Shown here piece after piece: positions 14,744 to 19,598 of a stretch of DNA of 64,000 bases. A program made the position numbers and the translations under genes. The notes beneath the pieces are model-generated. The model did no database searches, was not told the DNA's origin, and saw only the letters and a list, made by a program, of their open reading frames with translations. Position 1 is the first letter of the stretch; every line of letters begins with the position of its first letter. Location: NCBI RefSeq assembly GCF_009914755.1, contig NC_060941.1. One strand, 5' to 3'. This stretch comes from the human T2T-CHM13v2.0 reference genome, Homo sapiens.

Positions 14744-15078
14744 GAAGAGCTGAAGAGAGACCTGAAAATTAAGAAAGAAAAAGACCTGATGCAGTTGGCT
14801 CAGGCCACAGCAGTAGCTGCACCCTGCCCCCCAGTGACACCAGCTCCTCCAGCCCCTCCAGCCCCTCCACCTTCACCTCCCCCTCCACCTGCTGTGCAAC
14901 ACACAGGCCTTCTGTCCACGCCCACCTTACCTGCTGCTTCCCAGAAGAGGAAGCGGGAAGAGGAAAAAGACTCCAGCTCAAAGTCCAAGAAAAAGAAAAT
15001 GATCTCTACTACCTCAAAGGAAACTAAGAAGGACACAAAGCTTTACTGTATCTGTAAAACGCCTTATGATGAATCTAA
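14744..15078 (+). CDS. BPTF: BPTF coding exon: Pro-rich tract, basic NLS-like motifs (KRKREEE...KSKKKK), N-terminal part of PHD (LYCICKTPYDESK)
   Basis: caacag|GAAGAG ... TCTAA|gtgagt. 335 nt, phase 0->2; ORF 14789..15082. Confidence 0.96.
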
Positions 15079-16767
15079 GTGAGTAGATCTTTTTGAGCTC
15101 TAGTTTTTTGTCTTGAAAGTTTAGCTATTAAATTGGATTTTGAAGAAAATGAATATTTTGGGAGTGATATAAATGAAAATATTAAATTTAAGAGTAATGT
15201 TTCATCCATGGTCTTGCATGTGATATTCTTACCATTGACGCTAGTAAAGTAAAATTTGCTATTTCACGTGTTTGTGATTGTCCTTTGTTATATTCTTTTC
15301 TGTCAAAAACAAGCTTTCTGTTGCTCCTTTGCTTTCTCTTCTTCCCTCTGAATTAACTCCAAATCAGTGAGTAATTGATGTCTGGAGAAGGAGGTGTATT
15401 ACTGTTGCCCAAAATGGAGAGCATCCTTTCTGGGATCTGTTCAAAGCCCTGCGAATACATGAAATCCTGGAAACCAGTTGAACATGAATGGTCAGAGGTT
15501 TTGAATTTGAGTGGTTCGGTTTCTTAATTGTTTTATTTTAAGCAGTTGTTTTTTTTGTATTAAAATACTGCAACTCATATTTTTGTCAAAGTTTCCACTT
15601 TCTTATCAGAGACAAAAGCCAGAAAAATACAAAAAGTGTTCCTTTCCCCCATTCCTCAAGCATAACGTCCAACAGTTTGGCAGCTGGAAGCTGTTTTTGA
15701 CAGTTGTGACTTGTATTTGGTGATATAAACAAGATTATAGAGGCACTAAACCGTAAATGTAGTTTCATTTTTTTGGTCATTACTATCATTTTACAAAATA
15801 TTTAACTTCTACTTTGAACATTAAAATGTAGTCCAGCTTTTTAAAGCCACAGTTAACCACCATACTTTTTACAGGACCAAAAAGTCTGATTGTGCTTTAA
15901 AAACTGATCATTTAGAATCAATTAATTAGAATTAGGAATGCTTAATGCCTACCTTAAGTGGATACCTAATTGATTCCTAAAATAAAATTGTGGTCCCTTT
16001 AATGATGTTCAAGTTGCAACATTGAAGCTGCTTTGGTGGTGCTATCTAAATGATAATCTGTTTGCAAATGCCAAATGAAAACTCTTTGTTGGCAGATTGA
16101 GCTGTGTGCTGAATTAAACAGAAATCAATTTAGGCATCTTCACTTTTCATTATCTTATCTCATTGGAAATTATACATAATGTAAACAGTAGAACGTGATT
16201 CACTGATTTTTTTTTACTTTAGTTTAATACAAGTGTGCCTCACTTTAAGCAAAATATACTAAATGATTTCTGAAACAGGAGTTTCCTTACTTTTTCAGTT
16301 AAAAAGATTTGTTTACAGAATTTCTTTAAATAACAAGGCTTCTTTGGCCTGTTTAGAGTATTCAGATCACAGAAATTGATTTCACACACAACTTCTTTGA
16401 AATACCTACATTGCATAAAATGAGGCACACAGATACGTGTGCCCATTCCATCGAGATTGCCTCATTATTTTGTGTTATTTTATATTTTTCATTTTGTCAT
16501 TATTAACACTTTAGTATACCAGGTTCATTCACTCCCTATTTTAGTTGAGATGAGTTAGTGTTTCTAAGGAGTGTTTCGTAATCTCTTGTCCCAAACTAGG
16601 CTGGTTTGGGAATCCAGTGAGAGTGACTGAAAACTGAAATTCAAGTCCTGAACGTCCTTCCAGAACACAGCCTATCACCCTGTGGAGATAACACACAAAC
16701 TATCTCAGAGGACCCCCACCTGTGGCAGTGAAAATCATGTGAGAGTCATAGTTCAAAAGAAAAAAGT

Positions 16768-17347
16768 GCTGGGCACCGTGGCTCATACCTGTAATCTCAG
16801 CACTTTGGGAGGCCGAAGTGGGAGGATCACTTGAGCCCAGGTGTTTGAGACCAGTCTGGGCAACATAGAGAGACCCCGTCTGTACAAAAAATTGGCCAGG
16901 CGTGGTGGCTAATGCCTGTAATCCCAACACTTTGGGAGGCCGAGGTGGACGGATCACCTGAGGTCAGGAGTTCGAGATCAGCCTGGCCAACATGGCAAAA
17001 CCCTGTCTCTACTAAAAATGCAAAAATTAGCCAGATGTGGTGGCACACACCTGTAATCCCAGCTACTCGGGAGGCCGAGTCAGGAGAATCGCTTGAACCT
17101 GGGAGACTGAGGTTGCAGTGAGCCGAGATCATGCCACTGTACTCCAGCCTGGGAGACAGAGCAAAGCTCTGTCAAAAAAAAAAAAGAAAAGAAAAAAAGC
17201 CGGGCCTGGTGGCGCATGCCTATAGCCCCAGCTACTTGGGAGGCTGAGGTGGGAGGATCACATGAGCCTGGGAGGTCCAGGCTGCAGGGGGCCGTGATCC
17301 TGCCCCTGCTCTGCAGCCTGGGCTATACAGCGAGACAAAAGAAAAAA
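16768..17347 (+). mobile_element. AluS (16894-17198) nested in the mid A-rich linker of an AluJ
   Basis: Left arm 16768-16892, full Alu, right arm 17199-17347. Confidence 0.85.
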
Positions 17348-18526
17348 GTTAGTGGTAACAGGATAAACTACATAACCATATATTATTCCTTCACATTCAT
17401 GAAGCAGGTCAATTTGAAGCTTGAGGACGACTTCCATTCCTCTAGGTGAATCTGCCAAGAAATGCCTTGGTAGAACTAAGAGTGCCAATGGTATCAGCAA
17501 GGCCAGTCTGGTTCCCTGAGATTCATGGTAATTCTCACTATGACTTTGACATGGTGTTCCTACACAGTGCCTATCAACACTTATAGACACACTGTGTAAG
17601 CGTTTGTTACATTTACTTTTCCTTTTGTCATTAGGTCTTTTGTTACAGAGGCCACTCTGCTCTCCACAATCACACATTTACACAGCTCCCCCTTGCCAAG
17701 CAGTGTAGACCCTCACAGGCTTTGGATAACTATCCTTGCATCATTCTCCACACCTTGTCCCCGGTGTTGAACTGAAGCATCTCCTTCCACGTTCCCTGCC
17801 CGTTAGTTAGCCAGGCCACTGCCCACATTGTCACAAACATTATATTAACAGGAAAACTGGCCCGTGCCATATTCCATTATGAGAGGTTATTTTTAATTCG
17901 ATTAAATTCCAATGTTTATTCAGAAAACCTGGTAGAGATTGAATTGCTCTATGTACTTTCTTAGTTTTCTTCTTCATATCATATTTTGACCATTTATCTT
18001 CTACACCTGGCTGACCTGCATGTTCCTTGTAGTGTAACTTCTACTTGGTGTTTGCGCTTTGCTTTGTTTTCAAATTTAAATTGTGAGATACATTTTCAAA
18101 CCTATCTAAGAAATAGCCCTGATATTGAAATGGCTTCTGTGGAATAGGTTTGACAGATGTAAGTCTTTGATTCTTTGGCTTTGGTTTTTGTGCCTGTTAC
18201 AGTTTTACACACATTCATTCAGAGGAAGACATTACCATCAATGTGTTGTTTCTTTTTTCAAATTCCAGTATGTTTTTAAAGACCCATATTTCACTAAGCA
18301 GTGTACTTGTTGAAACTGATGTGAGTGACTTTATGTTTCCACATGTGATAGAGCATCAGATACTGGAGTTTGCCAGGGGTAGAATGGTTGGATTCAGAAA
18401 TGTTTAGCTGACTCATTGCAGGAAGTTACACTGTAAAAAAGTGAATCAAGGCAGGGAAGACAGATTTAAGTACCATGCAGCTCAAAATGACAATTACATT
18501 GTCATTTTCATTGTGAATACTTTTAG

Positions 18527-18700
18527 GTTCTATATTGGCTGTGATCTTTGTACTAACTGGTATCATGGAGAATGTGTTGGCATCACAGAAAAGGAGGCTA
18601 AGAAAATGGATGTGTACATCTGTAATGATTGTAAACGGGCACAAGAGGGCAGCAGTGAGGAATTGTACTGTATCTGCAGAACACCTTATGATGAGTCACA
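18527..18700 (+). CDS. BPTF: BPTF cassette exon (58 codons): C-terminal part of one PHD + linker + N-terminal part of the next PHD
   Basis: acttttag|GTTCTAT ... GTCACA|gtgagt. 174 nt, phase 2->2. Encodes FYIGCDLCTNWYHGECVGITEKEAKKMDVYICNDCKRAQEGSSEELYCICRTPYDESQ with intact C4HC3 ligands. Confidence 0.9.
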
Positions 18701-19405
18701 GTGAGTTCTGATAAGAGCATCATATTTAATAATTTAGGAAGCCAAATTGCTCTGACTGGTTACTTATTTATTTTAAAATAAAAAGCAGATTTTTTTCTAC
18801 ATTTATTATACACTTACATTACAAATTCCTTTTCATTTTTCTCTTTTTCCCTTTTTACCTACCCTTCAAAATTTATCTTGCTTCATAGTGAATGTTTGAG
18901 ACACATTGGGGAAAATGTGGTTTAATGGTAGATTTGATTCTTCAATATGTAACATAGAAATTAATGAGATTAAAATAGCCTGACTTGTTTGGACTTTATC
19001 AGTGTTTGAAATGGTGCTTTATTGTAGGTTAGAAAAACACTAATTTGGGTACAAGCTCTGAGACTCTGTTATTAGCTTATAGGATTTTGAACACCCATAT
19101 GGTACAGTACTAGTTGAAAGATTTTTGGCTTTGTTTTCAGCTTTAAAATCAATTGAATGTTTCATATTTATCTTTAAATTGGTTCTCCAGTATTACACAG
19201 TGTTCTTATAAATTTTTTTACTGCTTGTTCTTAACATCAAAAATACTAAATTAATGAACTGGAATGTCAATCTTGAAAGTATTAAAACCATAATACTAAA
19301 ACTATTTTATATCCCAGGGTTTAGCAAATTTTCAGGTGCATGCTTTATTATAAGTAACATCATCCCATGTGTTTTGAACTCACATTTCCATTTCGGATCT
19401 TGCAG

Positions 19406-19598
19406 ATTTTATATTGGCTGTGATCGGTGTCAGAATTGGTACCATGGGCGCTGCGTTGGCATCTTGCAAAGTGAGGCAGAGCTCATTGATGAGTATGTCT
19501 GTCCACAGTGCCAGTCAACAGAGGATGCCATGACAGTGCTCACGCCACTAACAGAGAAGGATTATGAGGGGTTGAAGAGGGTGCTCCGTTCCTTACAG
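19406..19598 (+). CDS. BPTF: BPTF coding exon: C-terminal part of PHD ([18 protein letters not shown]...CPQC), linker helix, start of bromodomain
   Basis: atcttgcag|ATTTTAT ... TTACAG|gtgaga. 193 nt, phase 2->0. Confidence 0.97.

What the first reader, a model, noticed from the sequence alone, without database searches (positions are those of the whole stretch)
15040..19598. Circularly permuted PHD cassette exon: splicing toggles BPTF between one hybrid PHD and two tandem PHDs
Seen: exon 18527-18700 is 174 nt, phase 2-2, and encodes the back two-thirds of one PHD plus the front third of another. Both fingers are split by an intron at the identical codon position (YDESK^FYIG, YDESQ^FYIG) with identical gtgagt donors. 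The ends are paralogous at DNA level (tactgtatctgtaaaacgccttatgatgaatc vs tactgtatctgcagaacaccttatgatgagtc; ttctatattggctgtgatc vs ttttatattggctgtgatc). Skipping yields one chimeric finger, [19 protein letters not shown]. Established: this is the H3K4me3-binding BPTF PHD sequence as I recall it, and fly NURF301 has two C-terminal PHDs. Inclusion yields PHD-PHD-bromodomain. All Zn ligands and the four aromatic-cage positions (Y of LYC, Y of PYD, Y of FYI, W of NWY) are kept in both fingers. Inference: the exon is a splice-controlled valency switch for H3K4me3 reading, and the extra finger is probably under-characterised in human. Its weak pyrimidine tract (ttgtgaatacttttag) fits regulated inclusion.
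Basis: partly seen in the sequence, partly recalled or inferred. Interest (0 to 1): 0.85.

Follow-up and report, generated by a model that had tools for sequence, protein, structure and literature searches.

The report
Optional second PHD finger exon in BPTF
A 174-base optional exon of the human chromatin-remodelling gene BPTF adds a second, intact-looking histone-reading PHD finger in front of the well-studied one, and the well-studied finger is itself what results when that exon is skipped.

Summary
Exon 18527-18700 is 174 nt and lies between two phase-2 introns. It encodes the back 35 residues of one PHD finger, a 10-residue linker and the front 13 residues of a second finger.

RefSeq already annotates it as a cassette exon. 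It is included in 31 of 49 spanning BPTF mRNAs, 2 of 8 of them curated, and skipped in MANE Select. All solved BPTF PHD structures are the skipped form.

The two fingers share 33 of 48 core residues, including all 8 zinc ligands and all 4 cage aromatics. Synonymous sites are saturated (pS 0.68, pN 0.21) and the introns are unalignable. This points to an ancient tandem duplication across a pre-existing intron, one that DIDO1 and PHF3 also carry.

Fly NURF301 has a second, uncharacterised C-terminal PHD. The "valency switch" is inference: I could get no reads, no orthologues and no structure model. The "weak pyrimidine tract" argument fails. No paper I could search describes the exon, with one ambiguous exception: a 2026 preprint on "exon 27 of BPTF".

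The parts
15041..15078 (+). Front third of a PHD finger (unit positions 1-12 plus two bases of codon 13) at the 3' end of constitutive exon 14744-15078. It carries zinc ligands 1-2 and cage Tyr10 and Tyr17 (PDB 2f6j numbering).
   Evidence: It is identical to residues 6-20 of PDB chains 2fui_A and 2f6j_A.
15079..18526 (+). Phase-2 intron, donor GTGAGT. It contains one masked repeat at 16748-17289.
   Evidence: It shows no similarity to the next intron beyond the donor hexamer.
18527..18632 (+). Cassette exon, part 1: the last base of codon 13 plus the back 35 residues of the extra finger (finger a). It holds zinc ligands 3-8 and the cage Tyr and Trp.
   Evidence: Pfam PF00628 at E 1.1e-8, profile positions 13-47 of 47. 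22 of 35 residues are identical to the canonical back part. The best PDB match is BPTF 2fui_A at 9.9e-20, which is not identical.
18633..18662 (+). Cassette exon, part 2: a 10-residue inter-finger linker, charged and Gly/Ser-containing, with 0 of 10 residues alike to the sequence that follows the canonical finger.
18663..18700 (+). Cassette exon, part 3: front third of finger b (unit positions 1-12 plus two bases of codon 13). It differs from the exon A front at 2 of 13 residues (Lys to Arg, Lys to Gln).
   Evidence: It aligns to residues 4-20 of 2fui and 2f6j.
18701..19405 (+). Phase-2 intron, donor GTGAGT.
19406..19511 (+). Back 35 residues of the bromodomain-proximal finger. This part is used by both isoforms.
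   Evidence: Pfam PF00628 at E 4.9e-9. The whole exon translation is 63 of 63 identical to residues 22-84 of 2f6j_A and 2ri7_A and to residues 16-78 of 6aze_A.
19512..19598 (+). Start of the linker that joins the finger to the bromodomain. It is unchanged by the splicing choice.
   Evidence: identical to the solved PHD-bromodomain chains.

Best explanation
Exon 18527-18700 is the middle, 'fusion' exon left by an ancient intragenic tandem duplication of one PHD-finger unit.

The duplicated segment ran from just before the finger, across a pre-existing phase-2 intron at codon 13, to just after the finger. That produces three pieces: an upstream exon ending in a finger front, a middle exon made of finger back plus linker plus finger front, and a downstream exon starting with a finger back. 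It also produces two introns at the same codon position and phase.

Because the middle exon is exactly one repeat period (58 codons) and is flanked by same-phase introns, the spliceosome can include it or skip it. Inclusion gives two fingers followed by the bromodomain. Skipping undoes the duplication at the RNA level and gives one complete finger.

The skipped form is MANE Select and is the finger in every solved BPTF structure. In the included form, the bromodomain-proximal finger b differs from the canonical finger at only 2 of 48 core positions and keeps its linker to the bromodomain. The known H3K4me3 plus acetyl-lysine reading module should therefore be preserved. The extra finger a is attached about 10 residues upstream.

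Shown: the anatomy, the annotation of both isoforms, the identity of the canonical finger with the skipped form, and long-term purifying selection. Inferred: finger a folds and binds a methylated H3K4-type ligand; inclusion adds a third reader to NURF; the double-finger form is the ancestral architecture shared with fly and worm.
For: - Anatomy and frame.
- Same profile cut-point in both fingers.
- Both isoforms annotated: exon included in 31 of 49 spanning mRNAs. It is included in curated NM_001439140.1 and NM_001439141.1 and skipped in the other 6 of 8 curated mRNAs, including MANE Select NM_182641.4.
- Solved structures equal the skipped form.
- All 8 zinc ligands and all 4 cage positions kept. 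Positions Y10, Y17 and W32 are named in passages of PMC4225485. Numbering comes from the alignment.
- Old duplication under constraint: pS 0.68 (dS about 1.8) against pN 0.21 (dN 0.25) over 48 codons. For the part encoded only by the cassette exon against exon C, pN is 0.26 and pS 0.63.
- Intron flanks not alignable. Donor side scores 27 against shuffles of 21.4 +/- 2.6, with 6 of 200 shuffles reaching it. Acceptor side scores 21 against 19.9 +/- 2.5, with 64 of 200 reaching it.
- The exon is not in a masked repeat.
- Intron older than the duplication: in DIDO1 and PHF3 the homology to the finger back starts one base after a pyrimidine-tract AG, with in-frame stops upstream. That is the same position and phase.
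- Unconstrained copies decay. Two segmental-duplication copies on chr17 have lost the zinc-ligand His of finger a, and one has a 5-base deletion. The parental exon is intact.
- Fly NURF301 has a second C-terminal PHD with an intact cage. C. elegans nurf-1 alleles are labelled PHD1, PHD2 and 'double PHD'.
Against: - No read-level evidence of inclusion or of regulation was available. MANE Select skips the exon, so inclusion may be minor in most tissues.
- No orthologous sequence could be retrieved. Searches gave 1 irrelevant hit, 0 hits and 0 hits under the length filter. Conservation of the exon across vertebrates and orthology with the fly and worm second finger are therefore untested.
- The selection estimate averages both copies over the whole time since duplication. 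It says nothing about the recent human lineage.
- Divergence between the parent and its pseudogene copies is not lower in the exons than in the intron. In L002, exon B differs at 3 of 174, exon C at 7 of 193 and the middle intron at 17 of 701. The numbers are too small to conclude anything.
- In AML cells the C-terminal PHD2/BROMO region was reported as not required for proliferation (PMC10711654, passages). That limits the expected phenotypic weight of any change in this region.
- For CXXC1 the apparent exon start lies about 3 codons further in, so the shared intron position is not universal in the subfamily.
Confidence: 0.7

Rival explanations
1. Specificity switch rather than valency switch. 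Finger a folds but reads a different ligand than H3K4me3, such as another methyl-lysine, a lower methylation state or a non-histone protein. Inclusion would then retarget NURF rather than strengthen the same contact.
For: 13 of 35 back-part residues differ from the canonical finger, and the flanking linker is unrelated. Kwon 2009 speculated that the fly second finger binds a different, repressive methyl-lysine (passage).
Against: All four cage aromatics are kept, as is the Asp that follows the third Cys. The closest solved relatives of the exon B back part outside BPTF are CXXC1, PHF2, PHF8, KDM7 and DIDO1 fingers. I recall these as H3K4me3 readers, but that is not stated by the call.
Confidence: 0.2
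2. Relic exon with no distinct role in humans. The double-finger form was ancestral, the human gene has largely switched to skipping, and the residual inclusion is unregulated splicing noise.
For: MANE Select and 6 of 8 curated mRNAs skip it. The functional literature I could search treats BPTF as having one C-terminal finger. The exon B divergence from the pseudogene copies is not visibly below intron level.
Against: The open frame, all ligands and both splice sites are intact despite saturated synonymous divergence. Copies freed from selection lost a zinc ligand within 2-6% divergence. Two curated and 29 of 41 model mRNAs include it.
Confidence: 0.2
3. Independent duplication. The vertebrate cassette unit arose separately from the second C-terminal finger of fly and worm, so the included form is a vertebrate novelty and not the ancestral architecture.
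For: No orthologous sequences were compared here.
Against: Synonymous saturation and unalignable introns show only that the duplication is very old. Fly and worm have the same PHD-PHD-bromodomain order.
Confidence: 0.15
4. Nested fold. In the included isoform the exon A front pairs with the exon C back, forming the canonical finger. The exon B peptide then folds on itself as a circularly permuted finger inserted at the junction.
For: By construction the ends of the exon B peptide meet at adjacent residues of a finger, and its own front and back are joined by a 10-residue linker.
Against: Co-translational folding favours sequential pairing. Nothing was tested, because the structure predictor was closed.
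Confidence: 0.03

Closest known systems
Human BPTF PHD-bromodomain module (PDB 2f6j, 2f6n, 2fsa, 3qzv, 2fui, 2fuu, 2ri7, 6aze)
   Same: The skipped isoform is this module exactly. Exon A tail matches residues 6-20 and exon C matches residues 22-84. In the included isoform, finger b differs from it at 2 of 48 core positions.
   Different: The included isoform carries an additional upstream finger whose back part is only 22 of 35 identical. No solved chain contains it.
Drosophila NURF301 C-terminal PHD-PHD-bromodomain (Kwon et al. 2009, PMC2705796) and the C. elegans NURF-1 'double PHD' (PMC6752949)
   Same: Two adjacent C-terminal fingers precede the bromodomain. In fly the bromodomain-proximal one binds H3K4me3. 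The other keeps the cage residues and has unknown specificity.
   Different: In fly the described splicing removes the whole C-terminal reader region. In human the extra finger alone is optional. Orthology of the fingers was not tested here.
Alternative splicing born from tandem exon duplication (Kondrashov & Koonin 2001; Letunic et al. 2002; recalled, not read here)
   Same: An internal tandem duplication creates a splice choice between paralogous coding units.
   Different: Those cases are mostly mutually exclusive whole-exon pairs. Here there is a single include-or-skip exon that is out of register with the domain by 13 codons. Skipping splices a hybrid but complete domain.
Hybrid repeats made by in-frame exon skipping in repeat proteins, e.g. 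spectrin-like repeats of dystrophin (recalled)
   Same: Exon borders lie inside repeat units, so skipping fuses the front of one repeat to the back of another and can give a foldable hybrid.
   Different: Here the hybrid is the principal natural isoform of a zinc-binding reader domain, not a therapeutic or mutant product.
Double PHD finger (DPF) modules of DPF3b and MOZ
   Same: Two consecutive PHD fingers in a chromatin reader.
   Different: As I recall, DPF fingers pack into one unit that reads acylated H3K14. Here both fingers are of the caged H3K4me3 type and are joined by a 10-residue linker. No packing was tested.

Membership tests
PHD finger (Pfam PF00628) | Cys4-His-Cys3 zinc-ligand pattern and a profile match above the curated cut-off | tested here: met
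   The exon B back part scores 35.4 bits against a cut-off of 24, on profile positions 13-47 of 47. All 8 ligand positions are present in both fingers once the fronts are added.
H3K4me3-reading PHD fingers (BPTF/ING2/TAF3 type) | Aromatic cage at the positions of BPTF Y10, Y17, Y23 and W32 | tested here: met
   Unit positions 2, 9, 15 and 24 are Tyr, Tyr, Tyr and Trp in both fingers. They map to PDB numbering through the alignment. Y10, Y17 and W32 are named in PMC4225485. Y23 is recalled.
H3K4me3-reading PHD fingers (BPTF/ING2/TAF3 type) | Measured preferential binding to the H3K4me3 peptide | not testable with these tools
   No binding data for the extra finger turned up. The structure predictor was closed.
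Cassette (skipped or included) exon | Transcripts with the exon and transcripts joining its two neighbours directly, both in frame | tested here: met
   31 of 49 spanning RefSeq mRNAs include it and 18 skip it. Among curated mRNAs, 2 include and 6 skip. Both frames are open.
Cassette (skipped or included) exon | Read-level inclusion and tissue regulation | not testable with these tools
Exon created by intragenic tandem duplication | Exon length equal to one repeat period, flanking introns at homologous codon position and equal phase, and paralogy of both halves to the neighbouring exons | tested here: met
   The period is 58 codons, or 174 nt. Both introns fall after base 2 of codon 13. Front identity is 11 of 13 and back identity 22 of 35.
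Orthologue of the second C-terminal PHD of NURF301 / NURF-1 | Phylogenetic grouping of human finger a with the fly and worm bromodomain-distal finger | not testable with these tools
   No orthologous proteins were retrievable. The representatives search is off.

The most novel reading that the evidence does not exclude
The textbook BPTF PHD finger is an RNA-level 'un-duplication' product. The ancestral bilaterian reader was PHD-PHD-bromodomain, and humans still make it through regulated inclusion of this exon. In tissues where the exon is included, NURF would carry a third reader. If so, the paradigm of bivalent H3K4me3/H4K16ac reading, and inhibitor work based on the single-finger construct, would describe only one of two natural states.
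Probability: 0.3. Interest if true: 0.7.

Novelty: new member of a known kind. Interest (0 to 1): 0.5.

Why it matters
BPTF's PHD-bromodomain is a standard model for multivalent reading of histone marks and is a drug target. Every structure I found uses the exon-skipped form, and a 2023 BPTF paper describes a single C-terminal finger.

If the two-finger isoform is made at meaningful levels, several things would need revisiting:
- NURF recruitment models.
- Interpretation of variants in this exon, which lies outside MANE Select.
- Proteomic databases limited to canonical isoforms, as used, which would miss it.

The case also shows cleanly how a duplication across an intron automatically creates a splice-reversible domain copy.

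Tried and rejected
Orthologue retrieval failed.
- The 305-aa neighbouring exon gave 1 hit among 220 scored candidates. It was a 379-aa fish fragment that ends at the exon border and has no PHD.
- The exon B translation gave no candidates.
- The exon C translation gave no candidates.

Because of the 0.55-1.75 length filter and the exclusion of sample-only proteins, these blanks say nothing about conservation.

Closed or unavailable resources:
- The Atlas could not read a new sequence.
- The structure predictor was closed, so no model of either finger or of the nested-fold idea was made.
- Li et al. 2006 (PMC4690523) is not held. Cage residues were taken from PMC4225485 instead.

Searches that found nothing relevant:
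- A processed BPTF pseudogene that might record the splice form was sought and not found. Exon A has 1 place in the genome; exons B and C have the parent plus 2 segmental-duplication copies.
- No Rfam family lies in 14000-20500, and no other annotated element is there apart from three masked repeats.

Ideas rejected:
- A recent duplication or gene conversion between the exon ends. Synonymous sites are saturated and the introns are unalignable. Identical codons at identical residues number 20 of 33 against 14.1 expected under uniform synonymous use (P 0.02). That is a mild excess compatible with codon bias.
- A weak acceptor as evidence of regulation.
- The Bptf events in Schmid 2013 (an alternative 5' splice site) and in the 2026 cichlid paper (a disordered loop) are different events.

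One search was the literature search for the aromatic-cage residues. I saw only search listings and found passages, never whole papers. Supplements were closed, including the mouse exon map in Figure S2A of Landry 2008 and the guide table of the 2026 preprint. Either might name this exon.

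
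Full report
**What is in the sequence**

The exon at 18527-18700 is 174 nt long. AG precedes it and GTGAGT follows it. The upstream exon 14744-15078 also ends before GTGAGT, and the downstream exon starts at 19406.

Reading the annotated frame, exon A ends two bases into a Lys codon and exon B supplies the third base. Exon B ends two bases into a Gln codon and exon C supplies the third. If exon B is skipped, the split codon is still Lys. So both introns are phase 2 and both products are in frame.

The translation of exon B has three parts:
- the back 35 residues of a PHD finger;
- 10 linker residues;
- the front 12 residues of another finger, plus a split codon.

Pfam PHD matches residues 2-35 of both the exon B and the exon C translations. 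Each match covers profile positions 13-47 of 47, at E 1.1e-8 and 4.9e-9. The two introns therefore interrupt the domain at the same place.

**The two fingers compared**

The repeat period is exactly 58 codons, the length of the exon. Over this period 33 of 58 residues agree: 11 of 13 in the front, 22 of 35 in the back and 0 of 10 in the linker.

All eight zinc-ligand positions and the four aromatic positions are identical. Through the alignment to PDB chains, the aromatic positions correspond to Y10, Y17, Y23 and W32 of the solved BPTF finger. Y10, Y17 and W32 are named as cage residues in passages of PMC4225485. Y23 is from my recall of Li et al. 2006, which is not held.

**What the isoforms are**

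RefSeq lists 51 BPTF mRNAs, and 49 of them span this region. Exon B is present in 31 of the 49:
- 2 of 8 curated mRNAs include it (NM_001439140.1 and NM_001439141.1, where it is exon 27 of 31);
- 29 of 41 model mRNAs include it;
- MANE Select NM_182641.4 and NM_004459.7 skip it.

The cassette character is therefore already in the public annotation.

All BPTF PHD chains in the PDB match the exon A tail at residues 6-20. They match the exon C translation at 63 of 63 positions. These chains are 2fui/2fuu, 2f6j/2f6n/2fsa/3qzv, 2ri7 and 6aze. The best match of exon B to any solved chain is non-identical.

The extra finger has no solved structure.

In the included isoform, the bromodomain-proximal finger differs from the canonical finger only at two front positions (Lys to Arg and Lys to Gln). 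It keeps the exon C-encoded connection to the bromodomain.

**Age and origin**

Between the two 48-codon cores, pS is 0.68 (dS about 1.8, effectively saturated) and pN is 0.21 (dN 0.25). In the front third, about 6.0 of 7.3 synonymous sites differ.

The DNA-level likeness of the exon ends is therefore what amino-acid identity forces. It is not a sign of recent duplication or gene conversion.

The intron flanks share only the consensus donor hexamer:
- donor side: local alignment of 300-nt flanks scores 27 against 21.4 +/- 2.6 for shuffles, with 6 of 200 shuffles reaching it;
- acceptor side: 21 against 19.9 +/- 2.5, with 64 of 200 reaching it.

The exon is not in a masked repeat.

In two paralogous human genes, DIDO1 and PHF3, homology to the finger back begins one base after a pyrimidine-tract AG, with in-frame stops upstream. 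That is the same position and phase. In CXXC1 the apparent border lies about three codons further in.

The simplest history is a tandem duplication whose ends lay in the two exons flanking an already existing intron. That event necessarily yields a middle exon of 'back plus front' and two same-phase introns. It also yields a transcript in which skipping the middle exon restores one complete finger.

The low dN relative to dS includes the part encoded only by exon B (pN 0.26 against pS 0.63). This shows that both copies were under purifying selection for most of that time.

**Internal contrast with unconstrained copies**

Two segmental-duplication copies of the exon B to exon C region lie elsewhere on chr17, at 97% and 94% identity over 574 nt.
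- In both copies the zinc-ligand His of finger a is replaced by Tyr.
- The exon C copies have lost a ligand Cys.
- One copy has a 5-base deletion in exon B.

The parental exon is intact. Differences from the parent in the 97% copy (L002) are 3 of 174 in exon B, 7 of 193 in exon C and 17 of 701 in the middle intron. These counts are too few to measure constraint.

**Comparison with other species, from papers only**

Kwon et al. 2009 (passages) report three things about fly NURF301:
- it has C-terminal PHD fingers in the plural;
- the bromodomain-juxtaposed one binds H3K4me3;
- a second C-terminal finger keeps the cage residues, with its specificity still undetermined.

The eLife 2019 nurf-1 paper (passages) speaks of three PHDs and a bromodomain in BPTF. 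It lists worm alleles named PHD1, PHD2 and 'double PHD'.

The included human isoform therefore has the fly and worm domain order. I could not test orthology. The three protein searches returned one irrelevant fragment and two blanks under the length filter. The representatives search is off.

**Function**

Nothing here measures binding or inclusion.
- The acceptor is not unusually weak. It has 12 of 18 pyrimidines, against 11-16 of 18 at the other eight BPTF acceptors in the window.
- A 2023 AML study describes BPTF with PHD1, PHD2 and BROMO only. It reports that the C-terminal readers are dispensable for AML proliferation (passages).
- A July 2026 preprint reports that 'exon 27 of BPTF' responds to U2AF1 inhibition in K562 cells, and that CRISPR-forced skipping lowers proliferation (passages).

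Exon B is exon 27 in the two curated mRNAs that contain it. It is the only RefSeq cassette exon near that number. But exon 27 is a different, constitutive exon in MANE Select and in NM_004459.7. The guides are in a closed supplement, so I cannot tell which exon the preprint means.

**Verdict**

The 'valency switch' and the regulation remain inference.

In the searches listed under Tried and rejected, I found no paper describing this human exon or its finger.

I file it as a new member of a known kind: a splice-reversible tandem domain duplication. It has moderate interest because it concerns a model reader module.

Noticed in passing
G000 chr17:65797396-65797973 (L002) and chr17:47148606-47149175 minus strand (L003, inside LRRC37A/ARL17B): There are two segmental-duplication copies of the BPTF exon B to exon C region, at 97% and 94% identity over 574 nt. 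Neither contains exon A. Both have lost zinc ligands, and one has a 5-base deletion in the exon B copy. No gene is annotated at the first place. The annotated BPTFP1 lies elsewhere, at chr17:65631666-65632464.
   Followed up: partly
window 644-1560: This exon has alternative 5' splice sites. It ends at 1131 in 20 RefSeq mRNAs, at 1560 in 29 and at 757 in 2. The 1131/1560 choice adds or removes 143 Gln-rich residues. It may be the human counterpart of the meiosis-regulated, PTBP1-responsive Bptf alternative 5' splice site of Schmid et al. 2013. This was not verified.
   Followed up: no
window 36633-39565: There are alternative last exons. 9 mRNAs use an acceptor at 36633 with a stop at 36639. 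40 mRNAs use 37439-39565 with a stop at 37475. These give two different short C-terminal tails after the bromodomain.
   Followed up: no
L018 (DIDO1, chr20) and L019 (PHF3, chr6); L017 (CXXC1, chr18): The PHD fingers of DIDO1 and PHF3 appear to be split by an intron at the same codon position and phase as the BPTF fingers. CXXC1 seems to be split about three codons later. This is judged from AG sites and upstream in-frame stops only, because no transcript annotation was held for those chromosomes.
   Followed up: partly
BPTF exons '21 to 27' (numbering of PMC6128440): [quoted passage not shown] Depending on the numbering used, its 3' end could lie at or next to the cassette exon. This was not resolved.
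   Followed up: no
window 18327-18436: The first 110 bases of the query used, which are intron upstream of exon B, match places on chrX and chr7 at 95-97% and on chr8 at 75%. This points to a dispersed repeat fragment that the 100-base masked-repeat list does not show at this spot.
   Followed up: no
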